From the NCBI GenBank assembly GCA_937872425.1, contig CALMSM010000149.1:1-55191 (forward strand): a stretch of 55,191 bases of DNA, written 5' to 3'. The notes below the pieces were generated by a model. The model was not told the origin of the DNA. It was given only the letters and a program-made list of their open reading frames with translations, and searched no databases. The DNA comes from an uncultured Candidatus Saccharibacteria bacterium. Lineage in GTDB: Bacteria > Patescibacteriota > Saccharimonadia > Saccharimonadales > CALMSM01. Both the position numbers and the translations under genes were made by a program. This document shows positions 5,530-30,324 of this stretch, in pieces (within the stretch, counting starts at the first letter, position 1; each line of letters opens with the position of its first letter).

Positions 5530-5544
5530 ACGGGGGGAATTGTA

Positions 5545-9074: not shown

Positions 9075-9113
9075 ACCTAGCACAAGATTAGGCCGCACCC
9101 ACTGGAATGGCAC

Positions 9114-11681: not shown

Positions 11682-11785
11682 TTTGTGACATAACGGTAGA
11701 GCATATACTTGCGCTAATTCTTGGGCAGATAATCGGCATGACAGTAATATTTATGGCATGGCAGTGTGTAAAAAAATATTTATGA
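11678..11785 (+). CDS. Micro-ORF, 35-aa hydrophobic peptide, not in ORF track
   Basis: MICDITVEHILALILGQIIGMTVIFMAWQCVKKYL. It has ATGA overlaps at both ends, bridging two enzyme genes. Confidence 0.3.
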   Translation: MICDITVEHILALILGQIIGMTVIFMAWQCVKKYL

Positions 11786-12858: not shown

Positions 12859-13800
12859 TTGAGAGTTAAAATGATACCCTCCGCTCTCAACCTGACATCA
12901 GGCGAAAGCGGCATCCACACGATATGTAGAAAATGGACAGAGCACGGTGCATCTGTCGGCATTGATTTTGTGGAGCCAAATGAGTCAACCTATGATTTGC
13001 TAGCCGTTCATGCGGGCATGAGCAAAGAGTACGCCACAGCCAACGCTCCGCTGGTCAGTCACCTTCATGGAATCTATTGGACGGCGGATTACGATGCTCA
13101 CTACTGGGAGTGGAAAGCCAACCGGGATGTAATCGACTCTATCCGTTATGCCACATCCGTTACCGTGCCAAGCGCCTGGGTGGCTGAACCATTACAACGC
13201 GATATGCACCTGAATCCTTACATCCTACCGCATGGCATCGACTGGCAAGAGTGGCAGCACAAAGAGCCGAACGAAGGATACGTGCTGTGGAATAAAAACA
13301 GATCGGGTGTTGATGTATGTAGTCCCATTGCTGTGGGCAAGCTAGCGCAACGCTTCCTGCAAGTGCCATTTATGACCACCTTTGCACCAGACAACGCCAC
13401 GCCAAATATTAAGGCAACTGGGTTGCTTCCTCATGCCGAAATGAGGGTGGCTGTGCAACGGTCAGCGGTCTATCTGGCATCGGTCAAAGAAACGTTCGGC
13501 ATCGGCATTCTTGAAGCGATGGCTAGTGGCGTGCCGGTCTTGGGCTTTGCACATGGCGGCATTATGGAGATGGTCGAGCATGGCGTGAACGGCTATCTCG
13601 CCAGACCTGGCGATTATGAGGATTTAGCCGAGGGCCTAAACTATTGCTTAAAGCACCGTGATACGCTGGGCGCTAACGGGGCTGAACTTGCCAAGCTGTT
13701 TACCTGGCAAAGCGTCATGCTGAAGCTACGTGGCATCTATGACGCCACGCTTAGAATGTTGGCGCATGGCAGGCCGTACGCGATAGATGAGGGATCATGA
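12859..13800 (+). CDS. GT4-family glycosyltransferase (GT-B)
   Basis: The ETFGIGILEAMASGVPVLG...VNGYL motif (E-x7-E). Start is TTG 12859 or ATG 12871. Confidence 0.8.
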   Translation: MRVKMIPSALNLTSGESGIHTICRKWTEHGASVGIDFVEPNESTYDLLAVHAGMSKEYATANAPLVSHLHGIYWTADYDAHYWEWKANRDVIDSIRYATSVTVPSAWVAEPLQRDMHLNPYILPHGIDWQEWQHKEPNEGYVLWNKNRSGVDVCSPIAVGKLAQRFLQVPFMTTFAPDNATPNIKATGLLPHAEMRVAVQRSAVYLASVKETFGIGILEAMASGVPVLGFAHGGIMEMVEHGVNGYLARPGDYEDLAEGLNYCLKHRDTLGANGAELAKLFTWQSVMLKLRGIYDATLRMLAHGRPYAIDEGS

Positions 13801-14219
13801 GATTAGTTGAAATTTCCGAAGAAACGATACGCGAGCAGATTAAAGAATTGCCAGAGCGGTGGCTTCGGTACGCCACAGTACATAAATCTGAGGTGAATCC
13901 AATCCGGGGTGGAATAGATTGGAGTTTAGGCGCATACAGCACTGATGCAAACGAGGGGGACTGGAAAACTTTCCGGTGGAACGGTCTGACATGCGAGGAA
14001 ATATATAAGGGATTAAAAAATCTGCCAGATAATGCTGGCGATTCAGATGTCATAAAAATTATGGGCGAATATAGGATCAACGAATGGGTTAGGCTGCCAT
14101 TGTGTTGGTCTTGTCAATTAAGAATGAAAAAATATGTCGAATTAGCGGAGGATTCGGATAATGGTTCAATTTGTTTTTGTGAATCCTGTATACGAAAAGC
14201 GTTGCAATTACTGAAATGA
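13797..14219 (+). CDS. Hypothetical protein with C-terminal Cys cluster
   Basis: CWSC...CFCESC motifs; ATGA overlaps on both sides. Confidence 0.45.
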   Translation: MRLVEISEETIREQIKELPERWLRYATVHKSEVNPIRGGIDWSLGAYSTDANEGDWKTFRWNGLTCEEIYKGLKNLPDNAGDSDVIKIMGEYRINEWVRLPLCWSCQLRMKKYVELAEDSDNGSICFCESCIRKALQLLK

Positions 14220-16240
14220 CAGACATTTTACTGCCATTGCCATTGGTCAGTGTCGTGATCCCTTGTTACAACAAATCTGCATCTATTGCTCGTACTATTA
14301 GTAGCGTCAAGAGGCAGTCTTTGTCCAATCTTGAATGCATCATTGTTGACGATGGCTCTACTGACAATTCAAAAGAAATCATTCTGGACGCAATTAAGAA
14401 TGATCGTCGATTTCATTATATCTACCAGGATAATCAGCGCGTGGCGGCGGCACGGAATAAGGGATTTAGGCAATCAACGGGTCTCTATCTATGCATGCTC
14501 GACGGAGATGACGCCATAGCTCCCCTGTTTTTAGAGTTATGCGTTAGAGCGCTAGAGAATGATCGTTCGATGGGTATTGCCTATAGTGGATTGCATTACA
14601 TTTTACCAGATGGAGCGCAGGGTTTAAGCGGATGGCCGGGGCGATTTGATTACAATGTAGTCCTGACAGGCGGCAACCCATTACCGACCTGCAATGTCGC
14701 GCGGCGTGATGTGTGGGAACGAACAGGCGGACAACGGAGCCGATATTGCGAAAGTGGCGCTGGCGAGGAAGATGCTGAGATGTGGTTGCGCGTTGGCGCA
14801 TTAGGGTTCAATGCCATCCAGATTGAACCGGCTGCAACATTGGTTGATATATATGCCGAACTGAAAAAGGTTTTAGGTAGGGAGCCGACCAGGGATGAAA
14901 TCATAGGCACGGGACGAATCAATGGTGAAAATTACGAAAAAGCCGTTAATTCTATGTTTGTTTACTCGTGGAAGTCTGGTCAGGTGAGCGGTAATCCACA
15001 GCACGTAAAATCTAAATATCAATCAGGTCATCCGTGGATGACGGACAAGCGCCACCCGTTCGCTTCGATGGCGCCTGCGACAGAGGGTCGTCAATCGCAC
15101 GCCGTCCGGCAATACGATGAGCCAGCGGTATCGGTGATTATCCCCTGTGGGTCTGACCACGTGCAATATTTGGTAGATGCGCTGGACAGCCTTGAGGCGC
15201 AACAGTATCGCAAATGGGAAGCGATTGTCGTCTTTGACACAGGTGAACGCAATTATGATGCGCTGTTGATGGCTTACCCATTTGTGCGGCCAGTCTATAC
15301 CAACAAAGTAGGCGCTGGCGCCGCACGCAACGCCGGGGCAAAGATTGCTCGCGCCAAGCTGCTATTGTTCCTCGATGCCGATGACTGGCTTAGACCTATC
15401 ACGCTGGAGAAGATGCTAATAGCCTGGAACAATAGTCAAGCGATTATTTACGGCGATTACTACGGCCATGCATTTATTGAGCCAAAAGAAGCCGAGCGCC
15501 TGAAGATGGGCGAGCGCCTTGTATCTTACAACGCCAAAACGCAAGCGGCGGTGATGATTCACAATGCCTCGAATTATGATTGTGAGGAGGCCATTCGACA
15601 ACCACGCTTGATTAAGCCGGATCAGTTCTACATCTGGAACCTGATTTGTTCGCTTGTGCCTAAAGTGTGGCATGATGAAATTGGTGGCTTTGATGAATCA
15701 ATGGCGTCTTGGGAAGACTGGGATTACTGGCTTAGAATGGCGCGGGCGGGCAAGTGCTTCGAGCGCATCACAGAGCCGTTGGTCAATTATCGTTTTTATA
15801 CTGGAAACAGGCGTGAAAGTGGTAGACAAATTGCGGAAAGTCTGCTACAATATATGCGAAGAAAATATGAGGAGATTCCAGCAATGGCGTGTAGCGGGTG
15901 CGGTGGCGGTCGGCCACAACAACAGAATCCAGTAGTTCAGGCGGCGGCATTAGCCATGCCCTTACAGGCCAGCGGCCAACCGGCGCAAAATGTGACAAGC
16001 GCTGACATTGTGTGGGTGAAAGTGGCCGGCAATCGAGTTGGCACACGCCCAACAGTGGGTATGGTAACACGTCAGCAATATGGCTATAAGGATTCTAATA
16101 GCCCAGCGTTCAAAATGTTTCTGGCCGATGTTCGAGCACAACCGACCATTTACATGATTGTGCCTGACCCATCATCGGCTAGAGTGGCAGAATTGACACC
16201 ACAGCAACAGCCGTTGGGTGAGCCAATTAGGATTGCATAG
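14216..16240 (+). CDS. Two-domain GT2-family glycosyltransferase
   Basis: Two GT-A modules. The first is VSVVIPCYNK...IIVDDGSTDNS...DGDD; the second is VSVIIPCGSD...LDADDW...WEDWDYWLR. Confidence 0.85.
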   Translation: MTDILLPLPLVSVVIPCYNKSASIARTISSVKRQSLSNLECIIVDDGSTDNSKEIILDAIKNDRRFHYIYQDNQRVAAARNKGFRQSTGLYLCMLDGDDAIAPLFLELCVRALENDRSMGIAYSGLHYILPDGAQGLSGWPGRFDYNVVLTGGNPLPTCNVARRDVWERTGGQRSRYCESGAGEEDAEMWLRVGALGFNAIQIEPAATLVDIYAELKKVLGREPTRDEIIGTGRINGENYEKAVNSMFVYSWKSGQVSGNPQHVKSKYQSGHPWMTDKRHPFASMAPATEGRQSHAVRQYDEPAVSVIIPCGSDHVQYLVDALDSLEAQQYRKWEAIVVFDTGERNYDALLMAYPFVRPVYTNKVGAGAARNAGAKIARAKLLLFLDADDWLRPITLEKMLIAWNNSQAIIYGDYYGHAFIEPKEAERLKMGERLVSYNAKTQAAVMIHNASNYDCEEAIRQPRLIKPDQFYIWNLICSLVPKVWHDEIGGFDESMASWEDWDYWLRMARAGKCFERITEPLVNYRFYTGNRRESGRQIAESLLQYMRRKYEEIPAMACSGCGGGRPQQQNPVVQAAALAMPLQASGQPAQNVTSADIVWVKVAGNRVGTRPTVGMVTRQQYGYKDSNSPAFKMFLADVRAQPTIYMIVPDPSSARVAELTPQQQPLGEPIRIA

Positions 16241-16441: not shown

Positions 16442-16489
16442 AACGATTCTAATCAGTACAATTAAATAGTACCCGCGTTCGTAGTTATG

Positions 16490-16526
16490 AGGCGCTATCT
16501 CAGAAATGGGATAGCGCCTTTTTTTA
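16490..16526 (+). terminator. Rho-independent terminator
   Basis: AGGCGCTATC (16490-16499) pairs with GATAGCGCCT (16510-16519) and is followed by a T7 run. Confidence 0.8.
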
Positions 16527-18974: not shown

Positions 18975-20258
18975 ATGGCAAGAGCATCCGTACCAACGAT
19001 TGTCAGTTTGGATACATTCGCTAGATTACTGGCGATCAACCCGGTGCATTTTAACGGCGCTAGGGCTGATACCTGTTGGCCGTTGTTGGGTGGGTGCTCC
19101 GATGTGTGGCCGCAACACGCTTGGCAATCTCAAGGCGAGTTGGTTGGCCGTGAGGAAGTGGCTCAAGCGCTCTATGACGCCGAAACTGAAATACGCCATG
19201 TGCTAGGCTATGCGGTGGGGCCTGAGTGGGTAGTGCAAGAAGTCCATGATTACCCTCGTTTTTATCGGCGTGATTTGTCGGCTTACGGGCAGGACATCAG
19301 AGGACTAGGTAAGTCGGTTGACGCTACCTGGGGCAAAGTTATCAGTCCAGGCCAACGGGCGGTATCGGCCATTGCGACTAGCACAACTGTCACCTATAGC
19401 GATGCCGATGGCGACGGGTGGAAAGAACTAGCGACAATTACCACAAGCACGGTGCTTGACGATGTAGACGAAATTAAACTTTACACGGCTGGAAAATCCG
19501 GCGCTCCTGAATGGGAGATTAGGCCGGTAAAATCAAAAACCATTAGTGGCACCACCTTGACCATTACCGCTGATAGCTGGCTATTCATTAATCCCTCGCT
19601 TTGGGAAGCCTACCCGACCAGCAATGATTTTAGCGCTGTGGATATTGAGGCGACAACGAACTTTGTCACGACCGTGGATGTGTACCACGAGTACGCAGAT
19701 ACCAGTAGCACGAGCGCAACATTTTACTGGGAACCAACGCATACAGCGCCGTTCGCCTGTCCAGAATGCGCCGGGGTCGGTTGCACAGTTTGCACGCTGA
19801 CCACACAGACAGGTTGTTTTGCCATTCGTGATGCTGAAGCCGGGATTATCGCGCCGTTCCCTGGTAGTTACGATGAGGATACAGGATTGTGGGTTAGCGA
19901 AGGGTTTAGCGTGGCGCGTGACCCTGACCAGGTAAAGCTTTATTACCAGGCTGGGCATTTGTCGAATCGATTCTTGTCTGGGCAATCGCTTAATCCTGTT
20001 GATGATTATCTGGCTCAGGCAGTGGTGTGGCTAGCCGTGGCACGCATGGAATACTCAGTATGCAGTTGCAACAACGTGCGCAACGTCACGCAAGAGCTAC
20101 GCCGCGACCTGACCGAAAGCACGAAGGATGCCGCCTATGTTCGCACGCCCAACATGGATATTTTTACAAACCCATTTGGCACCCGTGTAGGTGAGGTCAA
20201 AGCATGGCAACGGGTGGCGAAACTCATGCCGAACAACTGGAAAGGTGGCGTGGTCTAA
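18975..20258 (+). CDS. Virion-module protein of unknown role (427 aa)
   Basis: First ORF after the sugar island and ahead of the neck/tail genes. Contains CPECAGVGCTVC. Confidence 0.4.
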   Translation: MARASVPTIVSLDTFARLLAINPVHFNGARADTCWPLLGGCSDVWPQHAWQSQGELVGREEVAQALYDAETEIRHVLGYAVGPEWVVQEVHDYPRFYRRDLSAYGQDIRGLGKSVDATWGKVISPGQRAVSAIATSTTVTYSDADGDGWKELATITTSTVLDDVDEIKLYTAGKSGAPEWEIRPVKSKTISGTTLTITADSWLFINPSLWEAYPTSNDFSAVDIEATTNFVTTVDVYHEYADTSSTSATFYWEPTHTAPFACPECAGVGCTVCTLTTQTGCFAIRDAEAGIIAPFPGSYDEDTGLWVSEGFSVARDPDQVKLYYQAGHLSNRFLSGQSLNPVDDYLAQAVVWLAVARMEYSVCSCNNVRNVTQELRRDLTESTKDAAYVRTPNMDIFTNPFGTRVGEVKAWQRVAKLMPNNWKGGVV

Positions 20259-20761
20259 TGGCATCCGCTTTAGCCTGGAAAACAATAAAACCGGCAAGAC
20301 TCAAGGATAAATCTTTGCGAATCACGCTCATTAACAAAGCTCGTAAAATCGGAAACGCCATGAAGCGTGACTTCCTAGAGACCACAAAAACTTGGGAGCA
20401 TAAAGTCGAATTCTCCATCGATGTGAGTACAAAAGGCCAGGGGCCAGCCGTTTTGGTTGGCACTGATGACGAAATTTACGGATACGTCAACGATGGTACG
20501 CCACCGCATATCATCAGACCAGTACATGCGAAGATGTTGCGTTTTGCTACCGGCTACGCTGCAAAGACATCACCCGGCGTACTTGCATCAGGTAGTGGCG
20601 GCGCGTCAGGCAGCATTGCATATGCAAAGATCGTCCACCATCCCGGCACGAAAGCAAGAAACTTTGACAAAGTGATTGCCGACAAATGGCAATCCCGCTT
20701 CAAGAGTGAGATGGAAGACGCCTTGCGGGAATTCAGAAAAGAATCAGGACACGCAATTTAA
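20258..20761 (+). CDS. Neck/tail-completion-type protein (weak HK97 gp10-like resemblance)
   Basis: Internal start with a TAATG overlap. Position is between head and tail genes; the YGYVNDGTPPHIIRP...HHPGTKARNF pattern is the only motif hint. Confidence 0.35.
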   Translation: MASALAWKTIKPARLKDKSLRITLINKARKIGNAMKRDFLETTKTWEHKVEFSIDVSTKGQGPAVLVGTDDEIYGYVNDGTPPHIIRPVHAKMLRFATGYAAKTSPGVLASGSGGASGSIAYAKIVHHPGTKARNFDKVIADKWQSRFKSEMEDALREFRKESGHAI

Positions 20762-21126
20762 TGATCATAACCAAACTTGTGCAACAGCACAATGACATAT
20801 ATCTCGTGGAATGGATAGAGGACGGTGTTTCCCAACGGGCATTGGTGACACCTGACATGATTGTTGATATATCGGGACAATCCGCAATCGTGAACTATCC
20901 AGAGCGCGGGATACCGTTTGGTGAGGACTGGACAGCCTACATTAGCCAGGTGGTCACGCCATCTATGTTTAATGCCAGGCTCAAACAGTCCGGTATCTGG
21001 ACTATAGAAGATTTGCAGAGTAGACCTAACGAAGTGCATGGGGCATTGCTGGCCGCAACTGCTAGCATACTTCAGGAGCTACTTAGCAATGTGAAGTTAC
21101 AAAGGAGTTCTCAAAATGGCTCGTGA
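20761..21126 (+). CDS. Head-tail joining region protein (121 aa)
   Basis: Positional call only. Confidence 0.35.
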   Translation: MIITKLVQQHNDIYLVEWIEDGVSQRALVTPDMIVDISGQSAIVNYPERGIPFGEDWTAYISQVVTPSMFNARLKQSGIWTIEDLQSRPNEVHGALLAATASILQELLSNVKLQRSSQNGS

Positions 21127-22597
21127 AGCCTTTTCAACGAAAGACGGTGCTGCCTGGATTCAAACAGGCGGGCCAAACACTATCCCCTACTATCTGGGGT
21201 GTACAGACGTGGACAGCATCGACGAATCGGGCGGCTTAATTGACACGCTCTATCGATGTTTTACCACGGATGGCACCGGCTGGCGCACGGTAGGCGCATC
21301 GATTAGCCCGCCTGACCCAGTGAAGACGGCGCTTACTACGTACATCGGCGAGGTCGCCAGTTATCTGGAAACGATTAGCTGTCCAGTGACGCTGTTTTTC
21401 CACAGCCGGGACGCTGGCAAAGCGGATTTGTTCACTAACTATAAGCGCACTTATGTTCTAAATAACTGCCTTGTGGGTGACAAATCCTATGAAAATGTGG
21501 TAATGAAAGAGACCGACGATCTCGGTTCTCAGAAATTCAGCATTTCTGCCTTTCCGCCAGTTCACAAGATTTATCAGGTGACACCGGTTCGTCAGTCCAT
21601 CAGTAGCACAATTTCGCTAAACAATATTCAGTTTTGTAATAGCGTGCGTTGTGCCACTGACAGCGGTGCGGCGCAAGCTATCTGCACTACTGGCTATGCT
21701 ACCGGCAATGCGCCGACCGGCTCGCCTTCTACCACGACCGACGTGCTGTATACCAGTGACGCCGGTTCCACATGGACGGCTACCGCTACCGACCCATTCG
21801 CCGTAACCGAGGATATCCGAGGCATCACATGCTTCCCTATTTCTTCAACCGTCACCCGTGTCATTGTTTCTCGTGGCACAACTGACGCTGGTAATCCGGC
21901 TGAAGTCGCCTACAGTGACGACACCGGCACCACCTGGAATCTAGTCAACGTTGGCTCGACCAACGCACAGTATACGCAAAACAGCGAGGGTTTATTCTCT
22001 CTGGATCAGTATACCGTGTGGATGGTCACAAATGGCGGCTACATCTATTTCAGCAGTGACGGCGGCGTTACTTGGTCAACGCAGAGCGCAGGCGTGGCTA
22101 CAACCAACGCATTGCATTGCGTCCATGCGGCATCAAACCGTGTGGTGTGGGCGGCCGGTGCATCTGATACCATTCTACGCAGTTTGGACGGCGGCACAAC
22201 CTGGGCGACGGTAACGGCCAGCGGCGCAGGCTCTACCATCAATAGCATTTTCGCTTTGGATGCGCAGCGCGCTTGGGTTGGCACGGCCAACGGTCGATTG
22301 TATTACACGTTGGATGGCGGCACCACCTGGACAAGACGCCGTTACACCGACGATACAGCCGGTAGTACGCACGCCATTAAGTTTGTTAACAGCCTAATCG
22401 GTTGGATGATCCACGATACCGCTTCACCGGTGGGTAGCATTTTTCGCACCATTGATGGCGGCTATACCTGGGAGAAATACACCACACCGACCAACGCCGG
22501 ACTTAATGACATCAGTGTTTGTAACAATAACTTGGTATGGGCTTGCGGCAATGTCAGTGGAACGACTGGCGTTGTCATCAAGGCGACCAACATCTAA
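21116..22597 (+). CDS. Major-tail-position protein fused to a six-Asp-box (BNR) beta-propeller-like domain
   Basis: Six SxDxGxTW repeats: SDAGSTW, SDDTGTTW, SSDGGVTW, SLDGGTTW, TLDGGTTW, TIDGGYTW. It lies immediately upstream of the chaperone-position ORFs and the tape measure. Confidence 0.6.
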   Translation: MAREAFSTKDGAAWIQTGGPNTIPYYLGCTDVDSIDESGGLIDTLYRCFTTDGTGWRTVGASISPPDPVKTALTTYIGEVASYLETISCPVTLFFHSRDAGKADLFTNYKRTYVLNNCLVGDKSYENVVMKETDDLGSQKFSISAFPPVHKIYQVTPVRQSISSTISLNNIQFCNSVRCATDSGAAQAICTTGYATGNAPTGSPSTTTDVLYTSDAGSTWTATATDPFAVTEDIRGITCFPISSTVTRVIVSRGTTDAGNPAEVAYSDDTGTTWNLVNVGSTNAQYTQNSEGLFSLDQYTVWMVTNGGYIYFSSDGGVTWSTQSAGVATTNALHCVHAASNRVVWAAGASDTILRSLDGGTTWATVTASGAGSTINSIFALDAQRAWVGTANGRLYYTLDGGTTWTRRRYTDDTAGSTHAIKFVNSLIGWMIHDTASPVGSIFRTIDGGYTWEKYTTPTNAGLNDISVCNNNLVWACGNVSGTTGVVIKATNI

Positions 22598-22611
22598 TTT
22601 ACTTTGTGGCA

Positions 22612-22685
22612 AAACGGCTTCGTGTGATTGGGCTGCGTCCTCAGTTCAGCACGAAGCCGTTTCGCTAAATATGAACTGAGGACGC
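22612..22685 (+). promoter_or_regulatory. Interleaved 13-bp and 14-bp perfect helices; the second sequesters the RBS of the next gene
   Basis: 22612-22624 pairs with 22650-22662. 22635-22648 pairs with 22672-22685, which contains GAGGA 5 nt upstream of ATG 22687. Confidence 0.55.
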
Positions 22686-22686
22686 A

Positions 22687-23334
22687 ATGAGTAAAACGAT
22701 TGACCAGGCGGACATTTTTACCGCCGAAAATGGCACGGCGATTGAGCTTTTAGCTATTCGACCATTTGAAATGGCAATGGTCACTGAAGCGCTACGCAAG
22801 AAGTACCCCATCCCGGCTATTCCCACCTACGAAGTGGAGACCATCGGCGGCGGGAAAGAACTGCGAGAGCATGATGAAACCACCGCAACTGATGACGCCG
22901 ACAAAGCGCTGTGGAAACGCTATCTTGCCAACAAAGCTGAAGCCGAGGGCAAGATTAATCAAGAGATGAACGATTACATCTTGGCGGCTGGCACCCATAC
23001 ACAATTCACCGTTGACCTTGATGCGCCGTGGACAAAGATACAGCGCAAGTTTGGTGTCATTATCCCTGACGACCCCGAAGACTTACGGGTGCATTATCTC
23101 AAAACCCGTGTGCTGAACGTAGACGACATCAACGAATTGCTGACCCGTATCATGTCGAAAACGGGCATCAAGGCCGACATGGTGGAGACGGCGAAAGACT
23201 CCTTTCGCGGTACGGTACGGCGGCAGCGACGGGAAACCGGTAGACTCACTGTTGATTCGGCAGAAGGGGAAGTGGTGGACAGCGAGCAGATTCATGGAGT
23301 TGAAGACGGCGAAGGCGTGGGGCTTGACGCCTGA
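22687..23334 (+). CDS. Tail assembly chaperone (positional)
   Basis: 215-aa acidic ORF directly upstream of the tape measure. Confidence 0.5.
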   Translation: MSKTIDQADIFTAENGTAIELLAIRPFEMAMVTEALRKKYPIPAIPTYEVETIGGGKELREHDETTATDDADKALWKRYLANKAEAEGKINQEMNDYILAAGTHTQFTVDLDAPWTKIQRKFGVIIPDDPEDLRVHYLKTRVLNVDDINELLTRIMSKTGIKADMVETAKDSFRGTVRRQRRETGRLTVDSAEGEVVDSEQIHGVEDGEGVGLDA

Positions 23335-23473
23335 CCAGTGGGATAACGAGAGTGACGCCAGCAAAGCGCAGATGCTAGGCTATGAGGATGTATCCGCAAC
23401 AATGGCCGCATACGATGACCAGGTGCATGAGGACAAAATGGAATCTGAGCGCAGTAAAGGTAGAGGTCGGTAA
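23252..23473 (+). CDS. Overlapping ORF ending at the tape-measure start (chaperone extension or separate 59-aa gene from ATG 23294)
   Basis: It is in the +1 frame relative to 22687-23334 and overlaps it by 83 nt. Its stop abuts ATG 23474. Confidence 0.35.
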   Translation: MIRQKGKWWTASRFMELKTAKAWGLTPDQWDNESDASKAQMLGYEDVSATMAAYDDQVHEDKMESERSKGRGR

Positions 23474-26400
23474 ATGGCAAAGCAGATAGGACTACAAGCC
23501 ACACTTGATATAGATGCTTTTCTTCGTGGCGCTGGGCAGTATCAAAGCGCTATCGATGACATGAACGGCAAGACGGCTAGTTTTGCCGGTGCCGCTGTTG
23601 GTCACTTTCAAGACTTTGGCGGGGCGGCGCTCAGGGCGTCTGCTGTAGTTGCCACAGCTTCGGCTGCCGTGATTGCCGCTATCGGTGCTTGGGTCGGCAA
23701 AGGAATTTTAAATGCCGCTGATTTGGAGGAAAAGATCAGCGGCATTGTATCGATTTTGGATGGCGATACCGTCAAGGCATTTGGTGGTGCAGAGAAGGCG
23801 GCAGCAGCATTTGATTCAGAGATTACCGATTTGGGTTTAGACCCAAATCTAAAGGTGACGGCAACCGAAGCGGCTGACGCCATCAATCAGCTTGTTTCGG
23901 CGGGCGTCCCTGCGCAAGCCGTCCTTGATGGTGCTGCCCATTCCACGGTTTTACTCGCCAATGCTACCGGCGCAGACCTAACGATGGCCGCCAATATCGC
24001 CGCGCATTCAATGTCTATCTTTGGTATTAAAACTGGAGATTTAGAGGATGCCGTAAGTAATATTGCTGGTGTAGTAGGTAAATCCACTTTTACTATTAGT
24101 GATTACAGTATGGCGCTGGCCGCTGGCGGCGGCGTGGCCGCTTCTGTTGGTGTAAGTTTTGAGGATTTTAACGCTACCATCGCTGCTACATCGCCATTGT
24201 TTTCCAGTGGCAGTGATGCCGGTACGAGTTTCAAAACATTCCTACAACGTTTGACGCCACAAACAGACAAAGCAGCCACGGAAATGAAGAGGCTAGGGCT
24301 TAACTTCTATAACGCCGATGGCTCTATGAAGTCCATGACCGAGGTTTCTGGATTGCTTCAGAAGGCTTTTAGTGGATTAACCGAAGAACAAAAAAATCAG
24401 TCCGCCTCTATCATTTTTGGCACTGATGCCATGCGTACAGCGTTTGCGCTGGCAAGCACCGGTGCCGAAGAATTCGACAAACTGAAAAATTCCATTGATA
24501 GCGTAGATGCAAACCAACAGGCTATCATCCGTGTAACAAATCTCAAAGGCGCTTTCGAGATTCTACAGGGTCAAATTGATGCTGTTCAATCGGCCATTGG
24601 TAAGAAGTTTTTACCCGTGCTTAGAGAGTTGACACAATGGGCCAGCGAGTGGGTTTCGCAGTACGGGCATCAACTGATCGATTTCTTTGGTCAGGTCGCT
24701 ACCGCTGTTGATGCATTTAGAAATGCGCTGACTGCTGGTGTATCACCAATGAGCGCTTTTTTCATAGCCATGTCTGGGTTCGGCGAAACCGGCATATATG
24801 TGGCGACGATTATTCAAAACATCGTTGAAAAAACACAGTCGTTTGTCATGGCGGCAACAGCAATATTGTCTCCAATTATCAGCGCTATTGCCTCATTTGT
24901 ATCGTGGAAAGACGTACTCATTACGGTTGGCCTAGCCATTGCTTCCGTGGTTATCCCTGCAATTTATGGCTTTATTGCAGCACTACTGCCGGTGATAGCC
25001 ACGGTGGGCGCTGTATTGTTGGCCGTTGCCGCATTGCGCAATGCGTGGGAATCCAATTTCCTGGGCATCCAAACCGGCACAATTGCAGCCATCACCTATA
25101 TCACTGGCGCTCTTGCTCCATTTACATCCTCGGTTGCCGAGCATTTTGGCGGCGCATTAACTGAGATTAAAAATTTTGCGCTAGGCAATCAAACGGAATT
25201 TACCAACGTTGCGGCCATTTGGGAAGGCGCTAAAACTTCAGCCACTACACTATTTACCGATTTATCATCTTTGGTCACAACCTATCTGCCCGTCTGGACG
25301 GCCAAGCTCACAGAGTGGAGTGTAGCCGCTTCACAGTGGATTACAGATGCTATCCCGATTGTTACGCAAAAATTGACAGAGTGGTATACCGCACTAGCGA
25401 CCTACATTGTCACAAATTACCCGACCTGGTTGGCTGCTATGGCATTGTGGGGCAATGCGGTATGGCAATGGATAGTTGATGCCACGGCGTTAGTTGTCGC
25501 ACAATTGGGTGCATGGTACACCGAGTTATCCACATACGTCTCTGGTCAGCTACCCACATGGCAAGCGGAATTGGCATACTGGGCTACAGCTACCTGGCAA
25601 TGGATTGTCGATGCTACCGGGTTGATCGGGGCAAAGCTTGGCGAGTGGTACACCAGATTATCCAACTACATAGCAGGCCAGTTACCTACCTGGAAGGCAA
25701 GCTTCGTTAAATGGGCGGAAGCAACATGGCAATGGATTGTTGATGCTACAACTGAGGCCAAATCAAAAATCACGATATGGGCGATCAGTATCTTGTCGTA
25801 TATCGCAGAGAATTTACCGGACTTGCTGATTGCGATGATCAAGTGGGCTGAGGCTTTAGTATCATGGATTGTCAAGGCATCAGCCGACATTGTTCCAAAA
25901 CTCGGCTTGTACATAGGATATATCCTCGGATGGATATTAGGACAAACGCTAACAATTGCATCCTATTTGCTACTGTGGGCCTCGGCTTTCTTGAGTTGGA
26001 TAGCTGACGTGATTGTCAAGATTGCGCCGGAGTTAGGGAAACTAGGCGCTGCAATTATCGCTGGCATTATCAGCATAGGCGCTGACATATTAAAAGCCTT
26101 TGGTAACATGGCGCTTGGCTGGGCCTACGCTCTGGTAACAACCGTAAACTGGACACAGGTTGGCATGAATTTAGCATTGGCGCTATGGAATGGATTGCGA
26201 TATGTCATAGTATTTACAGCGGCTATATTTAAAACGGCAATCGATGGAATTTTAAGCCTACTTGGTATCGCAGGGAATGCGGCATCTACAGTATTTACCA
26301 CTGTAGGCAAAAGCATCCTTGATGGTGTTGTGGCCGGTATCGGCGCACTCGTTGAAGGGAAAAGCCCGGTAGTTGCGAAATTTGACGAAATCATTACAGC

Positions 26401-28378
26401 CGCCAAAAAAGTTTGGACTGATTCCGTTGCCTCATTCAAACAGCTTGGCACAGACATCATCGACGGCATTACCGCTGGCCTAGAAGCGGCTAAAGATGCG
26501 CTGAAGCAGAAAATGCTTGACATCGCAAACGCTCTGCCGAGTTGGGTAAAAAAGGCGCTTGGTATTGAATCGCCATCGAAAGTATTTATGGCAATAGGCC
26601 GCTACGTCATTCAAGGTTTCGTGGCTGGGCTCAAAGATGAATGGGCGATTCGTCAAGGCGAGTTTAAGGATTTGTTTTTATTCGCCATGCCAAAAGGTAA
26701 CATCGGTGGTAGTGGTTACTGGGATTTACCCACAGGACTCGCCAAAACAAAAGACGTAGCCAGCGGGCTGCTTAGTGTATTCAAAAAACTAGCTGACATG
26801 TCGCCTAGCGCGAATCATTCCGGCATGTCTGCGGCGGTGCAAAGTATCAATGACTCGCTTACTGTCCAGCTTGACCTGCTTGACCAAATCGAAAAAGCTG
26901 GCCTAGACCCGCGTGGCGTGTTGGGTGATACATGGATGGGTATCGGTGCCGACCCTGGCAAGCTGGCCGATTCCATTTTTGAGGTGACAAAACTTGCGCA
27001 GCAAAAGTTGAACAATGAAGTCATCAACCGGCGCAATTCGTTAATCAGTAAATTTGTATTGCAACCGTTCACAGATGCGCTGACCAACCAAGCGCAAGTT
27101 ATCGCTGACACGCTGAAAAATGTCGCTACCGATTTCGGTAAAATCCGCATCGATAGATTGTTGGCACAAATCGCAGACGTAGACAAACAGATTGCCACCT
27201 ACACGCAAATTAGTGACCGACAGGGCTTGACTTTTGATGAACAAAACCGCTTTAGAGATTTGGTCAATCAACGCGGCACTTTGGCTGCACAAATCGGAGC
27301 CACAAGCAATATTGAGGGATTTTTCAATATCTCCGATGAAGCCACCCGCCTCGACCAAATGAAAAAGCAGGTTGACCTGCTGAAACAAGCAAGAGACTTG
27401 TCGGCCGACATTCCCGCTGACGCCTTTGGTAATATTGCGAATGACAGCACGCTTCGGGCGCTGGTTGAAGTCTATGCTCATGTTCAGAATGCGCAGTTGA
27501 ATCAATTGCAATCGCAACTATCCACGCTGCAATCAAATAACATTCAGGCACAACTCAACCAGTACAAAGCGCAACAGGCATCACTGGACAGTCAAATTGC
27601 ATTGCTGCAAAAAGCCAGAGACCTGGGCTTGCAGTTATCTGGTGAGTCCACCTGGGGCGCAAATACGCCACAATCTGACATCAATAATCTGACCTTGCGC
27701 ATTGCGCAAGAGCAGCTACGGCGCACGCAAAACGAGCTAAAGTTAATCCAGGGCATCCCTGCCAACCTGCTAAATTTATCGCCTACTAACTCAGTAGCGC
27801 AATTGTACAAGACGCAGGTGCTTGACCCGATGCTGAAGACCTTGCGGGAAGCTGTGTTACTGGACAGCCAGCGCGCTGACCTAATGGCGAAATATGTGGC
27901 TGGTGCAGAGAAGGTGCAAACGCTGAATGACAAGCAAAGTCAACTGGATTATCTCAAATTTCAAACCGATCTGATCAAGCAGGTCAATGACACTTTTTCT
28001 GCGGCTGGTGCTCAAACCGTGCTGGCTGATACCCATTTTGGCCTTGATGCCTCACTAGATGACCTGTTAGCCTTTGCCACTCGCATGGTTAACGGCATGG
28101 TCGACAAGGTCAAAAACGGGTTAGGTATCGCATCGCCATCGAAAGTGTTTATCGACATCGGGCAGCGGGTAATGCAGGGCTTTAGTCGGGGCATGGAATC
28201 GATGGCCGACAAACCGATCATGGCAATTAACCAGGCATTGCGACCGTTGCCTTACGCCTATGCCGGTGGGCAGCGAACGATGAATGTCAACATGGGTGGC
28301 GTGTCAATCAGCAACGGTATGGACGATGTAATGTTTGAGCACAGAGTGCGCCAGGTGGTAGAGGGGATGATGGCCTAA
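23474..28378 (+). CDS. Tape measure protein
   Basis: 1634 aa, Ala/Gly-rich with TM-like central segments and a long coiled-coil C-terminal part. It carries two LGI(E/A)SPSKVF...QGF motifs and follows the chaperone ORFs. Confidence 0.9.
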   Translation: MAKQIGLQATLDIDAFLRGAGQYQSAIDDMNGKTASFAGAAVGHFQDFGGAALRASAVVATASAAVIAAIGAWVGKGILNAADLEEKISGIVSILDGDTVKAFGGAEKAAAAFDSEITDLGLDPNLKVTATEAADAINQLVSAGVPAQAVLDGAAHSTVLLANATGADLTMAANIAAHSMSIFGIKTGDLEDAVSNIAGVVGKSTFTISDYSMALAAGGGVAASVGVSFEDFNATIAATSPLFSSGSDAGTSFKTFLQRLTPQTDKAATEMKRLGLNFYNADGSMKSMTEVSGLLQKAFSGLTEEQKNQSASIIFGTDAMRTAFALASTGAEEFDKLKNSIDSVDANQQAIIRVTNLKGAFEILQGQIDAVQSAIGKKFLPVLRELTQWASEWVSQYGHQLIDFFGQVATAVDAFRNALTAGVSPMSAFFIAMSGFGETGIYVATIIQNIVEKTQSFVMAATAILSPIISAIASFVSWKDVLITVGLAIASVVIPAIYGFIAALLPVIATVGAVLLAVAALRNAWESNFLGIQTGTIAAITYITGALAPFTSSVAEHFGGALTEIKNFALGNQTEFTNVAAIWEGAKTSATTLFTDLSSLVTTYLPVWTAKLTEWSVAASQWITDAIPIVTQKLTEWYTALATYIVTNYPTWLAAMALWGNAVWQWIVDATALVVAQLGAWYTELSTYVSGQLPTWQAELAYWATATWQWIVDATGLIGAKLGEWYTRLSNYIAGQLPTWKASFVKWAEATWQWIVDATTEAKSKITIWAISILSYIAENLPDLLIAMIKWAEALVSWIVKASADIVPKLGLYIGYILGWILGQTLTIASYLLLWASAFLSWIADVIVKIAPELGKLGAAIIAGIISIGADILKAFGNMALGWAYALVTTVNWTQVGMNLALALWNGLRYVIVFTAAIFKTAIDGILSLLGIAGNAASTVFTTVGKSILDGVVAGIGALVEGKSPVVAKFDEIITAAKKVWTDSVASFKQLGTDIIDGITAGLEAAKDALKQKMLDIANALPSWVKKALGIESPSKVFMAIGRYVIQGFVAGLKDEWAIRQGEFKDLFLFAMPKGNIGGSGYWDLPTGLAKTKDVASGLLSVFKKLADMSPSANHSGMSAAVQSINDSLTVQLDLLDQIEKAGLDPRGVLGDTWMGIGADPGKLADSIFEVTKLAQQKLNNEVINRRNSLISKFVLQPFTDALTNQAQVIADTLKNVATDFGKIRIDRLLAQIADVDKQIATYTQISDRQGLTFDEQNRFRDLVNQRGTLAAQIGATSNIEGFFNISDEATRLDQMKKQVDLLKQARDLSADIPADAFGNIANDSTLRALVEVYAHVQNAQLNQLQSQLSTLQSNNIQAQLNQYKAQQASLDSQIALLQKARDLGLQLSGESTWGANTPQSDINNLTLRIAQEQLRRTQNELKLIQGIPANLLNLSPTNSVAQLYKTQVLDPMLKTLREAVLLDSQRADLMAKYVAGAEKVQTLNDKQSQLDYLKFQTDLIKQVNDTFSAAGAQTVLADTHFGLDASLDDLLAFATRMVNGMVDKVKNGLGIASPSKVFIDIGQRVMQGFSRGMESMADKPIMAINQALRPLPYAYAGGQRTMNVNMGGVSISNGMDDVMFEHRVRQVVEGMMA
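25310..25885 (+). repeat. Trp-rich tandem repeats (about 38 aa, about five copies) within the tape measure
   Basis: Recurrent units of the form TWQWIVDAT...LGEWYT.LS.Y..GQLPTW. Confidence 0.6.
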
Positions 28379-30324
28379 TGCTATCACTATTTGTAATCAC
28401 GGACGGCACAACCACGGTTGACCTAATGGCGCTCAACAAAAACGGGTGGGGCATCGGTATTGACAGCTACACGCCCGGTCGCGCACAGATGAAAGACGGC
28501 GGCTACTGGCAAGATTCGCCGCTGGCGACTGGCAGACATTTAGCCTACAGCGTGAAGGGAAACGTCAATGACGCGCTGACGATTAAATTTAGCTACCGTA
28601 GTCACAATGAAATTATTCAGGAGCAAGAGCGGCTTGACGGGCTGATTGAAAAGGCGGCAAATTACTGGCAATCCGAATGGGCTGATGAGCCGGTGTATAT
28701 CAAAGCGCAAGCACAAGGTGAGTCTAACCCGCGCTATGCCATCATCTACAATATTACTTTCCCCGAATATCAAGACCCCTATGCGCAGCCATTCAACACG
28801 GCATCACCGCCCTATGTGGCGGATGGTATCGTGTTGGGTATTGAGCATGGTGCATGGACAGAAAATGCGCCGGGGACGGGGACGGCGGTTGCCATCTCGC
28901 ACACAAAGCATAGCACGGCGTCAACCACTGGCGTCTATGTGGCAAGTGCGCGCAATGATGGTCTGTCGCACATCTATTCGTTTACGGGTAGTTTTGGGTC
29001 AAATCTGTTGTCCGGTGCCACGCCATATAATTTGTTTTCAGGTACAATCGCCGTGGGGAGTATCTGTTATTTTGGATCGTCCTATCCGTTCAGGGGTTTA
29101 ATCCTCGACCTTTCGACGGCAATGTCTTCCACGACATCCTATACATTAACGTGGGAATTCTCCGATGGCGCGGCGGGTTGGCCGACCATCGGCTCATCAC
29201 CGCAAGGCACGCCGCAGCTAAATAGCACAGGTATCATTTTTGTCTTGCTCTATCCTGATTACACCTGGGCTACCGAAACGGTCAACGGTGTGGCTTCAAA
29301 ATATTGGATACGGGCTAGAGTTTCGGCAAAAACCGGCACGGTGACTTCGGCTAGGCAGCAGAATCGTCATGTGTATTCGGCGGTAATTCCGTATGTGAAT
29401 GTGGCGTCAACTCAGATAACAGGATCAATCAATGCATTAGCCAGAATCAAGACGTTGATCACGCGCATTGCAGCAGAGAATCCCGGCTCCATTCTGTTTG
29501 GTATAAGAGACAATGATCGGGGGTCAAGTTTCACGGCGTATATCAATGTGAAGACGGCTGATAATCCAAGCGGGGTATCGGTAACAACCAGTACTGATAC
29601 AGCTTATTACACCTATTCTATCTCTCCAACAGGATTTTTGATTAGGTACACAAGCATAAGCAGCACAACATTTGAAGAGCGCTTCAACGTGCAATTCACG
29701 TCAGCAATTGCTAATCAATTTTATGGCCGCTTTCGATTGTTTGTCAGGGTGAATATTGGGAACGTTGGCGGGACAACGCAAATTAGATATAAATTGTATG
29801 CGCCTCTAACCAACCCAGTGGTCATTGCGACCAGTACGTTAGCTTTCACTGGACAAACAAAAACCATTACAAATCCACAGACATTGATCGATCTGGGCTA
29901 CATCCAGATCCCCCCAACAAATTTAGTTCGCCAAAGCGAAAACTTTGGCAGCTTCGCCATATCAATTGAGGCGGTGACGGTCAATACCTACACGCTTGAT
30001 TTTTATGATTTGATTTTACTGCCGGTTGACGAATGGAGCGGTACATTCACAAGCGTAGCTTACACTGACGTTGCATCTGCCACTGTGGATATTGATAGCA
30101 TCACCTACCCCAAATACGAGTTAAGAGCACTGCAAAAAACATTAGCCGGGACAAGAATTGATAAGGTTTTGTCGGCTGTATACAGGAATTCAGCATCCTT
30201 GCCAGCCAACACCAGTACAAATATCTGGTTTGTTCAGGGCGATAACATCGTCGGTTATGATGTAAATATCGCACAAATTCAGATTAGCCGCCAACAGCGC
30301 TATTTAGGCTTGCGTAGTTCCTAA
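28378..30324 (+). CDS. Distal tail protein (positional)
   Basis: 648-aa ORF with a TAATG overlap onto the tape measure stop. Confidence 0.4.
   Translation: MLSLFVITDGTTTVDLMALNKNGWGIGIDSYTPGRAQMKDGGYWQDSPLATGRHLAYSVKGNVNDALTIKFSYRSHNEIIQEQERLDGLIEKAANYWQSEWADEPVYIKAQAQGESNPRYAIIYNITFPEYQDPYAQPFNTASPPYVADGIVLGIEHGAWTENAPGTGTAVAISHTKHSTASTTGVYVASARNDGLSHIYSFTGSFGSNLLSGATPYNLFSGTIAVGSICYFGSSYPFRGLILDLSTAMSSTTSYTLTWEFSDGAAGWPTIGSSPQGTPQLNSTGIIFVLLYPDYTWATETVNGVASKYWIRARVSAKTGTVTSARQQNRHVYSAVIPYVNVASTQITGSINALARIKTLITRIAAENPGSILFGIRDNDRGSSFTAYINVKTADNPSGVSVTTSTDTAYYTYSISPTGFLIRYTSISSTTFEERFNVQFTSAIANQFYGRFRLFVRVNIGNVGGTTQIRYKLYAPLTNPVVIATSTLAFTGQTKTITNPQTLIDLGYIQIPPTNLVRQSENFGSFAISIEAVTVNTYTLDFYDLILLPVDEWSGTFTSVAYTDVASATVDIDSITYPKYELRALQKTLAGTRIDKVLSAVYRNSASLPANTSTNIWFVQGDNIVGYDVNIAQIQISRQQRYLGLRSS

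What the first reader, a model, noticed from the sequence alone, without database searches (positions are those of the whole stretch)
21116..22597. Tail-tube-position protein carries a six-Asp-box (BNR) beta-propeller-like domain
The ORF directly upstream of the chaperone-position ORFs and tape measure is 493 aa. From about residue 200 it contains six evenly spaced SxDxGxTW Asp-boxes, which is the signature of BNR/sialidase-like or Ycf48-like propellers.

Tail tube proteins are often decorated with Ig-like domains. A complete propeller on each tube subunit would be an unusual, bulky, probably carbohydrate-binding sheath along a tail of roughly 245 nm (1634-aa tape measure at about 0.15 nm per residue).

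It could also be a glycan-recognition partner of the island. This is inference.
Basis: partly seen in the sequence, partly recalled or inferred. Interest (0 to 1): 0.65.

Follow-up and report, generated by a model that had tools for sequence, protein, structure and literature searches.

The report
Phage tail tube protein carrying a propeller
This gene most likely encodes the main building block of a phage's long tail, fused to a large seven-bladed propeller domain of a kind not previously described on tail tubes. The same design recurs in hundreds of uncultured phages.

Summary
ORF 21116-22597 (493 aa) contains six Asp-boxes, and they are the only six in the whole window (0.07 expected by chance).

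Residues ~193-493 form a Ycf48-like propeller:
- Pfam PSII_BNR scores 56 bits.
- The PDB profile search gives E=5e-24.
- The AlphaFold model has pLDDT 92 and matches Ycf48 with TM 0.72-0.76.

Residues 1-~172, modelled alone, match only tail-tube-fold proteins (Afp1/Pvc1, 80alpha, lambda gpV, Hcp).

The gene sits just before the chaperone-like gene and the 1634-aa tape measure. That order holds in about 60 of 72 related viral contigs.

The tube domain is almost never found without the propeller: 257 clusters, nearly all 480-505 aa. The propeller is also the more conserved part (49% vs 41% pairwise identity).

In a few relatives, tube and propeller are two adjacent genes. So the N-terminal part is a self-contained tube protein and the propeller is an attached module.

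There are no sialidase motifs. No cultured phage has the fusion, and I found no paper describing it.

The function is inferred: a surface-binding array, a stiffening outer layer, or both. A link to the glycan island is not required, because only about a third of relatives carry a glycosyltransferase nearby.

The parts
21116..22597 (+). Whole gene: tail tube protein fused to a propeller (493 aa plus stop)
   Evidence: ORF. Full-length AlphaFold model has pLDDT 91.9 and pTM 0.88. At least 909 full-length homologues of ~490 aa were found.
21101..21107 (+). Shine-Dalgarno sequence AAAGGAG, 8 nt before the ATG. The start codon overlaps the end of the upstream ORF by 11 nt.
   Evidence: Sequence read; ORF coordinates.
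21116..21631 (+). Tube domain, residues 1-172 (beta-sandwich tail-tube fold)
   Evidence: The model of residues 1-192 has pLDDT 82.6. Foldseek against PDB: Afp1/Pvc1 tube TM 0.64-0.69, 80alpha, A-1(L), NF5, Sf11, R4C, lambda gpV TM 0.58-0.60, Hcp; best E=2.6e-6. In relatives L067, L068, L069 and L086 this part is a separate ~170-aa ORF.
21632..21742 (+). Linker, residues 173-209. It is Cys-rich (C174, C179, C190) and ends in the Ser/Thr-rich stretch GNAPTGSPSTTTDV.
   Evidence: Translation; cysteine conservation of 62-80%. This is the least conserved segment (37% mean pairwise identity). It is absent in some homologues.
21743..22594 (+). Ycf48-like BNR/Asp-box beta-propeller, residues 210-493. 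The first propeller strand probably starts near residue 193.
   Evidence: Pfam PSII_BNR and Sortilin-Vps10 score above their cut-offs. PDB profile hits Ycf48 at E=5e-24. Foldseek hits Ycf48 at TM 0.72-0.76 over about 300 residues. Strand pattern.
21752..21775 (+). Asp-box 1, TSDAGSTW (aa 213-220)
21914..21937 (+). Asp-box 2, SDDTGTTW (aa 267-274). It is preceded by the most conserved segment of the protein, RGTTDAGNPAE.
22052..22075 (+). Asp-box 3, SSDGGVTW (aa 313-320)
22181..22204 (+). Asp-box 4, SLDGGTTW (aa 356-363)
22307..22330 (+). Asp-box 5, TLDGGTTW (aa 398-405)
22448..22471 (+). Asp-box 6, TIDGGYTW (aa 445-452)
22612..22662 (+). Strong RNA hairpin just after the stop codon. It may be an attenuator or a stabiliser between the high-copy tube gene and the low-copy downstream genes.
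   Evidence: Arms of 13 nt at 22612-22624 and 22650-22662. Folding 22595-22700 gives -37.3 kcal/mol, z = -4.07, with 0 of 200 shuffles as stable. The function is inferred.
20204..20761 (+). Upstream conserved 185-aa gene, in neck or tail-completion position
   Evidence: A homologue lies directly upstream in 75 loci. No Pfam, PHROG or PDB match.
20761..21126 (+). Upstream conserved 121-aa gene, in tail-terminator position
   Evidence: A homologue lies directly upstream in 52 loci. No PDB match. No profile similarity to the tube protein.
22687..23334 (+). Gene in the tail-assembly-chaperone position (215 aa). An overlapping +1 frame is open from 23144 to 23473.
   Evidence: A homologue follows the tube gene in 60 loci. 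The second frame ends 3 nt before the tape-measure ATG.
23474..28378 (+). Tape measure protein (1634 aa)
   Evidence: Pfam PhageMin_Tail E=1.7e-38. PHROG tape-measure families down to E=2e-58.

Best explanation
This is the major tail tube protein of an uncultured siphovirus-type phage.

Residues 1-~172 are the canonical tube beta-sandwich. This domain would stack as hexameric rings around the 1634-aa tape measure.

Each subunit continues through a Cys-rich linker into a closed, non-enzymatic, Ycf48-type propeller. The propeller has six Asp-box blades plus one closing blade. It must lie on the outside of the tube.

At roughly 245 nm of tail and about 4.3 nm per ring, the tail would carry some 340 propellers and be about twice the usual thickness.

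What is shown:
- both folds
- the gene position
- the near-universal coupling of the two domains
- the existence of relatives in which the two parts are separate adjacent genes

What is inferred:
- hexameric assembly
- copy number
- what the propellers do

My best guess for function (about 45%) is a multivalent, low-affinity array that holds the phage on host envelope or matrix polymers before the tail tip commits. This is what Ig-like and carbohydrate-binding decorations of other tail tubes are thought to do. A stiffening or protective outer layer is nearly as likely (about 30%). The two roles are not exclusive.
For: Folds:
- The full-length model has pLDDT 91.9 and pTM 0.88.
- The propeller matches Ycf48 with TM 0.72-0.76 and E=5e-24 by profile.
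- The N-terminal model matches only tube-fold proteins, E down to 2.6e-6.

Position:
- The gene lies directly before the chaperone-position gene and the tape measure.
- The order is the same in about 60 of 72 IMG/VR loci, and in L001 and L002.

Siphovirus type:
- Only three genes follow the tape measure on that strand.
- No sheath or baseplate Pfam family is recorded for neighbours in L001 or L002, and L002 has Sipho_Gp37.

Modularity:
- In L067, L068, L069, L057 and L086 the tube (~170-190 aa) and the propeller (~280-320 aa) are separate adjacent ORFs, the second with its own ATG; an SD-like motif precedes it in L057 and L067.

Coupling:
- A search of 1.84 billion representatives with the tube domain alone gives 257 clusters, almost all 480-505 aa.

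Not an enzyme of the sialidase type:
- None of 80 members has a FRIP motif.
- BNR_2 scores below its cut-off.

Expression signals expected of a high-copy structural gene:
- a strong Shine-Dalgarno sequence
- a stable hairpin right after the stop codon
Against: - There are no virion proteomics or images, so 'major' and 'hexameric' rest on homology and gene order.
- The tube domain hits no Pfam or PHROG tail-tube family. Membership is structural only, with TM 0.5-0.69.
- The best structural matches are tubes of contractile systems. The non-contractile reading therefore depends on the absence of a recognisable sheath. The 427-aa upstream protein (18975-20258) is unidentified.
- Against a host-specific adhesin: the propeller is more conserved than the tube domain (49% vs 41%), and it is not seen swapped for another domain or shown to be lost in the relatives examined (one 187-aa tube-only ORF, P0147, has no downstream context). 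Known adhesive decorations are sporadic and variable.
- No ligand-binding site has been identified.
Confidence: 0.75

Rival explanations
1. The architecture is the same, but the propeller layer is mainly structural. Neighbouring propellers contact each other and the tube. Together they form a continuous second wall, a non-contractile pseudo-sheath, that stiffens or protects a long tail rather than binding the host.
For: - The propeller is more conserved than the tube core (49% vs 41% mean pairwise identity).
- The most conserved stretch, RGTTDAGNPAE at aa 253-263, is outside the Asp-box motif.
- The domain is present in nearly all 257 clusters.
- pTM 0.88 suggests a fixed orientation of the two domains.
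- In split-gene relatives the propeller behaves like a separately added decoration protein.
- YSD1 shows that extra tube domains can create large ring interfaces (PMC8718954).
Against: - No multimer model or structure exists, so conserved residues could not be mapped to interfaces.
- Tape-measure lengths in the family range from about 785 to 2120 aa, so the propeller is not tied to exceptionally long tails.
- Some members carry extra inserted segments in the propeller (P0151, P0196). That looks more like a binding platform than a tightly packed wall.
Confidence: 0.3
2. The propeller is functionally tied to the phage's glycan-biosynthesis island. Either it binds a glycan the phage makes, or it or its Ser/Thr-rich linker is the substrate that gets glycosylated.
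For: - The window has a 12-kb sugar-modification island at 4119-16240: an epimerase, two DegT aminotransferases, GT1, GT2 and GT10-like transferases, and methyltransferases.
- A large GT2-type transferase lies on the same strand 2-6 kb upstream of the tube gene in 25 of ~72 related loci.
- The linker is Ser/Thr-rich.
- From my own knowledge, not checked here: virion glycosylation of capsid and tube subunits by phage transferases is known in mycobacteriophages.
Against: - About two thirds of loci have the fusion but no detectable transferase within 10 kb, for example L002.
- The propeller is equally conserved with or without the island.
- There is no direct evidence of glycosylation or glycan binding.
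Confidence: 0.1
3. The propeller is an enzyme, such as a glycosidase or depolymerase, that clears capsule or matrix along the length of the tail.
For: - Asp-box propellers include sialidases and GH74 xyloglucanases, which appear as weaker matches.
- Other phages carry BNR propellers in fibres annotated as sialidase or xyloglucan hydrolase.
Against: - The best matches by far are the non-enzymatic Ycf48 proteins (E=5e-24, against 1e-6 or worse for sialidases).
- None of 80 members has the FRIP motif.
- BNR_2 is below its cut-off.
- GH74 catalysis needs two propellers forming a cleft, and there is only one here.
- The blades are short (42-47 aa), which leaves little loop material for an active site.
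Confidence: 0.05
4. It is not the major tube protein. Instead it is a minor tube-fold component, such as a distal tail protein, tube initiator or terminator, that carries a binding domain.
For: - The tube fold is shared by Dit, terminator and hub proteins. Some PDB matches come from baseplate or cap entries.
- Dit proteins often carry carbohydrate-binding insertions (my own knowledge).
Against: - The gene lies before the chaperone and tape measure, not after them.
- Large candidates for Dit and the tip protein exist downstream (28378-30324 and 30328-32574), with homologues in 23-26 loci.
- If this were a minor protein, no tube gene would be left in the module.
- The 121-aa and 185-aa upstream proteins show no similarity to tube proteins.
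Confidence: 0.05

Closest known systems
Decorated siphophage tail tube proteins (lambda gpV, T5 pb6, YSD1_22, SPP1 gp17.1*)
   Same: An N-terminal tube beta-sandwich is followed by an extra domain that projects outward from every, or many, subunits (review PMC8718954). The gene sits before the chaperones and tape measure.
   Different: The known decorations are small Ig-like or beta-sandwich domains of about 90-100 aa. Here the decoration is a ~300-aa closed propeller, larger than the tube domain itself. The word 'propeller' does not occur in that review. The decoration is also more conserved than the tube core and essentially obligatory in the family.
Ycf48/HCF136 photosystem II assembly factor (Pfam PF14870; PDB 2xbg, 5ojr, 5oj3)
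   Same: A seven-bladed Asp-box propeller of about 300 residues with short blades. It is the best match by sequence (E=5e-24) and by fold (TM 0.72-0.76). It is non-enzymatic.
   Different: Identity is only 12-18%. The window protein is fused to a phage tube domain, sits in a tail gene module, and has no photosynthesis context. IMG's label 'photosystem II stability/assembly factor-like' on homologues is a domain-level name, not a function.
BNR/Asp-box propellers in other phage proteins (cyanophage baseplate wedge initiators, Vibrio phage VP2/phiVC8 'outer capsid protein', tail fibres of Caulobacter and Achromobacter phages)
   Same: The same propeller type is used on the outside of virions.
   Different: Those are fibre, baseplate or capsid-surface proteins. 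None of the deposited-phage matches covers the tube domain. One unnamed UniProt viral protein, A0A1P8DJ39 (497 aa), does match across both domains (TM 0.71, 16% identity). It may be a distant member of the same design.
Tube proteins of contractile injection systems (Afp1, Pvc1) and Hcp
   Same: These are the best structural matches to residues 1-192 (TM 0.64-0.69).
   Different: Those tubes are naked and enclosed by a separate contractile sheath. No sheath or baseplate gene is recognisable here or in L001 and L002.

Membership tests
Long-tailed phage tail tube protein (gpV / gp19 / Hcp fold superfamily) | Beta-sandwich tube fold with a flanking helix and a long hairpin | tested here: met
   The model of residues 1-192 (pLDDT 82.6) matches tube proteins almost exclusively among the best 50. 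Best E=2.6e-6, TM 0.5-0.69.
Long-tailed phage tail tube protein (gpV / gp19 / Hcp fold superfamily) | Gene lies immediately upstream of the tail assembly chaperone(s) and tape measure | tested here: met
   Window order. The same order holds in about 60 of 72 related loci.
Long-tailed phage tail tube protein (gpV / gp19 / Hcp fold superfamily) | Sequence membership in a curated tail-tube family (Pfam or PHROG) | tested here: not met
   No Pfam or PHROG match to the N-terminal part. No PDB sequence match to it either.
Long-tailed phage tail tube protein (gpV / gp19 / Hcp fold superfamily) | Polymerises into stacked hexameric rings and is the most abundant tail protein in virions | not testable with these tools
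   Needs proteomics, cryo-EM or a multimer prediction.
BNR/Asp-box beta-propeller, Ycf48-like (Pfam PF14870) | Repeated SxDxGxTW Asp-boxes at blade spacing | tested here: met
   Six boxes, 42-54 residues apart, where chance predicts 0.0003.
BNR/Asp-box beta-propeller, Ycf48-like (Pfam PF14870) | Score above the Pfam gathering threshold | tested here: met
   PSII_BNR scores 56.4 bits against a cut-off of 27.
BNR/Asp-box beta-propeller, Ycf48-like (Pfam PF14870) | Closed seven-bladed propeller fold | tested here: met
   pLDDT is 90-97 across the domain. TM is 0.72-0.76 to seven-bladed Ycf48 over its whole length. The blade count is inferred from the strand pattern and the match, because model coordinates could not be inspected.
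BNR/Asp-box beta-propeller, Ycf48-like (Pfam PF14870) | Role in photosystem II assembly (cyanobacterial or plastid context, lipoprotein) | tested here: not met
   The domain is fused to a tube domain inside a phage tail module. It is filed as a structural relative, not a functional Ycf48.
Sialidase / GH33 | FRIP motif with its arginine triad, and a BNR_2-type catalytic propeller | tested here: not met
   None of 80 family members has a [FYW]R[IVL]P motif. In homologues, BNR_2 scores 25-31 bits against a cut-off of 31.4. Sialidase PDB hits are E=1e-6 or weaker.
Distal tail protein (Dit) | Encoded directly after the tape measure; tube-like N-domain plus a galectin or carbohydrate-binding domain | tested here: not met
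   The gene precedes the chaperone and tape measure. Separate large genes occupy the post-tape-measure positions.

The most novel reading that the evidence does not exclude
The propellers of neighbouring subunits lock together into an ordered, non-contractile second wall around the tube. That would be a new tail architecture, intermediate between naked siphovirus tubes and sheathed myovirus tails. In some lineages the wall is added as a separate protein encoded right after the tube gene. The wall might also be the scaffold that displays or binds the glycans made by the phage's own sugar island.
Probability: 0.25. Interest if true: 0.75.

Novelty: new variant of a known kind. Interest (0 to 1): 0.58.

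Why it matters
Tail tube decorations described so far are small Ig-like or beta-sandwich domains. A full propeller on every subunit would give a tail with several hundred identical binding or bracing modules, a design not represented in any solved phage structure.

The family is large: at least 909 clusters at 90% identity, on viral contigs of 40-85 kb. It has no cultured member. Public databases label it 'photosystem II assembly factor-like', which could be mistaken for a photosynthesis auxiliary gene.

The fused and split versions together give a ready-made experimental system. Tube and propeller can be expressed together or apart to test how tail decorations attach and what they do.

Tried and rejected
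Searches that found nothing useful:
- PHROGs gave no hit for the tube protein or its upstream neighbours.
- tblastn against 50,697 deposited phage genomes found nothing with the window protein. With the family consensus it found only partial propeller hits in fibre, baseplate or 'outer capsid' proteins.
- The three conserved upstream families (427, 185 and 121 aa) could not be identified. They have no PDB sequence match, no Pfam match in any member and no phage-database match. A 5.8-billion-protein search with the 427-aa profile returned only 'hypothetical protein' entries with no domains. The capsid protein therefore remains unassigned, and the 427-aa protein is excluded as a sheath only indirectly.
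- The first two window ORFs (17-1345, 1345-2778) also have no matches.
- Profile comparison of the tube protein with the 121-aa family was negative.
- Literature searches for tail tube with BNR, propeller or Ycf48 found no prior description. One query was malformed.

Partial or weak results:
- The genome-collection scan failed with the broad alignment. With a narrower one it found only five short MAG contigs, three of them binned as Chloroflexota/Anaerolineales. That is a weak host hint at best.

Ideas I rejected:
- I guessed that the insertion in P0151 was LamG-like. Pfam did not confirm it.
- I looked for a -1 slippery site for a chaperone frameshift. The open overlapping frame is +1, and no in-frame heptamer was found.
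- I first read the split genes in L067 and L068 as programmed frameshifts. I rejected that because the downstream frame is closed by a stop just before its own ATG, and the frame relation differs between relatives.
Full report
**1. The observation**

ORF 21116-22597 on the + strand runs from ATG to TAA and encodes 493 residues. An AAAGGAG Shine-Dalgarno sequence lies 8 nt before the start, and the start overlaps the end of the upstream ORF.

Six Asp-boxes start at residues 213, 267, 313, 356, 398 and 445. A regular-expression scan of all six reading frames of the window finds exactly six matches to [ST]xDxGx[ST]W, all in this ORF. Composition predicts 0.07 for the whole window.

Independent support:
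- Pfam PSII_BNR scores 56.4 bits (cut-off 27) and Sortilin-Vps10 52.5 bits (cut-off 33).
- A profile of 80 homologues hits Ycf48 crystal structures at E=5e-24. Sialidases are many orders of magnitude weaker.

**2. The two folds**

An AlphaFold model built on 80 homologues is confident throughout (pLDDT 91.9, pTM 0.88).

*Propeller.* Against the PDB, the best matches of the whole model are all Ycf48, the seven-bladed photosystem II assembly factor. TM is 0.72-0.76 normalised to the target, over its full ~300 residues. The strand pattern gives five complete four-stranded blades between residues 234 and 455. About six further strands at the two ends of the domain fit a seven-bladed ring closed by strands from both termini. 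The blade count is my inference, because the model coordinates could not be inspected.

*Tube domain.* A second model of residues 1-192 alone (pLDDT 82.6) was searched against the PDB. Nearly all of the best 50 matches are tail-tube-fold proteins:
- Afp1 and Pvc1 tubes (TM 0.64-0.69)
- the phage 80alpha major tail protein
- cyanophage A-1(L), NF5, Sf11, monocin and diffocin tubes
- roseophage R4C
- lambda gpV (TM 0.58-0.60)
- Hcp

The best E-value is 2.6e-6.

**3. Context**

The gene is followed by three features:
- a stable hairpin (13-nt arms at 22612-22624 and 22650-22662; -37.3 kcal/mol, z = -4.07)
- a 215-aa gene whose 3' end overlaps a second open frame, which stops 3 nt before the next ATG
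- a 1634-aa tape measure

Only three more genes follow on that strand before the orientation flips.

At least 909 full-length homologues of about 490 aa exist in public metagenomes. Seventy-six IMG/VR viral contigs, mostly 40-85 kb, carry one.

Comparing the window's proteins against all ORFs of these loci shows a fixed order in about 60 of 72 loci:
1. a 350-430-aa protein
2. a ~170-aa protein
3. a ~125-aa protein
4. this gene
5. a ~200-aa protein
6. a tape measure of 785-2120 aa

Precomputed Pfam hits for neighbours in L001 and L002 include no sheath or baseplate family, and L002 has Sipho_Gp37. I read this as a siphovirus-type tail module with this gene in the tube slot.

**4. How tightly the two halves are coupled**

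I searched 1.84 billion cluster representatives with the tube domain alone. This returned 257 clusters at E<=0.001, and almost all are 480-505 aa. The tube domain of this family is therefore almost never found without the propeller.

Within 80 aligned members, mean pairwise identity is:

| Segment | Mean pairwise identity |
|---|---|
| Tube domain | 41% |
| Linker | 37% |
| Propeller | 49% |

The most conserved stretch is RGTTDAGNPAE just before the second Asp-box.

A few members are longer. They carry extra segments inserted in the propeller (P0151, P0196) or a second BNR region in front (P0246).

**5. Natural split genes**

In L067, L068, L069 and L086, the tube domain ends at a stop codon after about 170 residues. 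A new ORF with its own ATG begins 5-14 nt later. It encodes the Cys-rich linker plus the propeller.

In L057 the break comes after the linker instead, and a GAGGTG ribosome-binding site precedes the second ATG.

The frame relation differs among these relatives (-1, +1 and in-frame), and the downstream frame is closed just before its ATG. These are therefore separate genes, not programmed frameshifts or sequencing errors.

This shows two things. The N-terminal ~170 residues are a self-sufficient tube protein. The propeller is a module that stays physically associated with the tube whether or not it is covalently joined.

**6. Mechanism**

*Shown:* tube fold, propeller fold, gene position, coupling, modularity.

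*Inferred:* the tube domains form hexameric rings around the tape measure, with the propellers on the outside.

Using 0.15 nm per tape-measure residue gives about 245 nm of tail. At roughly 4.3 nm per ring (the value quoted for YSD1 in PMC8718954), that is about 57 rings and about 340 propellers.

The propeller is unlikely to be an enzyme:
- None of 80 members has the sialidase FRIP motif.
- BNR_2 stays below its cut-off.
- A single propeller cannot form a GH74-type cleft.

I consider two roles, which are not exclusive:
- *Binding array.* A multivalent low-affinity array for host surface or matrix polymers, by analogy with the Ig-like and carbohydrate-binding decorations of other tubes.
- *Structural outer layer.* The high conservation and obligatory presence argue for this.

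I put these at about 45% and 30%.

**7. The glycan island**

The window carries a 12-kb sugar-modification island (4119-16240) between the first two ORFs and the tail genes. A large GT2 transferase lies 2-6 kb upstream of the tube gene in 25 of ~72 related loci. That recurrence is notable.

However, two thirds of the loci have the fusion without a nearby transferase, for example L002. The propeller is therefore not an obligate partner of the island. A role as glycosylation target or glycan binder in the island-bearing subset remains possible but untested.

**8. Comparison with what is known**

The review of major tail proteins (PMC8718954) lists Ig-like Big_1 and Big_2 domains and the YSD1 domain2 as tube decorations. 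It does not contain the word 'propeller'. Full-text searches combining tail tube or major tail protein with BNR or propeller found no description.

None of the 50,697 deposited phage genomes has a full-length relative. They contain BNR propellers only in fibre, baseplate or 'outer capsid' proteins.

Among predicted viral structures, one unnamed UniProt protein (A0A1P8DJ39, 497 aa) matches across both domains at TM 0.71 and 16% identity. The design may therefore already sit unannotated in a deposited viral genome.

**9. Verdict**

It is a new variant of a known kind: a decorated tail tube protein whose decoration is a full Ycf48-like propeller. It defines a large uncultured phage lineage. The function of the propeller layer is open.

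Interest is moderate to fairly high for phage structural biology. It is limited by the lack of a cultured member and of any direct evidence on assembly or ligand.

Noticed in passing
L067:10496-10515; L068:10511-10521; L057:10571-10592; L069:~100-125; L086:~1400-1415: In these relatives the tube domain and the propeller are two separate adjacent ORFs. The second has its own ATG; an SD-like motif precedes it in L057 and L067. The break falls before the Cys-rich linker in four loci and after it in L057.
   Followed up: yes
window 4119-16240: A sugar-nucleotide and glycosyltransferase island of about 12 kb lies on the structural-gene strand. It encodes an NAD epimerase, two DegT aminotransferases, GT1, GT2 (double domain, 674 aa) and GT10-like transferases, two methyltransferases and DUF5662. 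GT2 homologues recur upstream of the tube gene in 25 of ~72 related loci.
   Followed up: partly
window 16489-16520: A textbook intrinsic terminator (14-bp stem, 7 G-C pairs, T-run) lies right after the glycan island and before the DUF1360 gene.
   Followed up: no
window 22635-22647 and 22673-22685: There is a second perfect 13-nt complementarity. One arm lies inside the loop of the post-tube hairpin, and the other covers the ribosome-binding region of the chaperone-position gene (ATG 22687). This gives a pseudoknot-like or alternative-pairing topology that could throttle downstream translation.
   Followed up: partly
window 23144-23473: A frame +1 relative to the chaperone-position gene is open for 110 codons and ends 3 nt before the tape-measure ATG. 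This resembles a G/GT chaperone pair but would need a +1 or -2 shift. No slippery heptamer was found in the right frame. An internal ATG also exists, so it could be a separate small protein.
   Followed up: partly
window 18975-20258: A conserved 427-aa Cys-rich protein (for example an EPCGCD motif) has more than 230 metagenomic homologues but no Pfam, PHROG, PDB or phage-database match. Detectable homologues occur largely in the same loci that carry the GT2 transferase. It sits in the capsid-or-adaptor position, and its identity is unknown.
   Followed up: partly
window 2775-3782 (- strand): A LAGLIDADG-type homing endonuclease with N-terminal HTH domains is encoded on the opposite strand, between the second window ORF and the glycan island.
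   Followed up: no
P0151 (723 aa), P0196 (696 aa), P0246 (894 aa): These family members carry inserted segments of about 200-230 aa inside the propeller, or an extra BNR-like region in front of the tube domain. Pfam does not name the insertions.
   Followed up: partly
window 21116-22597 (residues C29, C48, C89, C174, C179, C190, C239, C469): Eight cysteine positions are conserved in 62-100% of 80 homologues, including an invariant C29 and C48 in the tube domain. They may form disulfides that stabilise an extracellular structure.
   Followed up: no
window 54330-55191 and 40997-43555 (- strand): A primase-polymerase-like ORF runs off the 3' end of the window. An 852-aa helicase and DNA methyltransferase fusion lies in the leftward replication module. 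No terminal repeat was found, so the window is probably not a complete circular genome.
   Followed up: no
L079-L083: Only five contigs in the genome collection encode the fusion, and all are short MAG contigs. Three are binned as Anaerolineales/Chloroflexota, one as Methanomassiliicoccales and one as Gemmatimonadota. These are probably binned phage contigs and give only a weak host hint.
   Followed up: no
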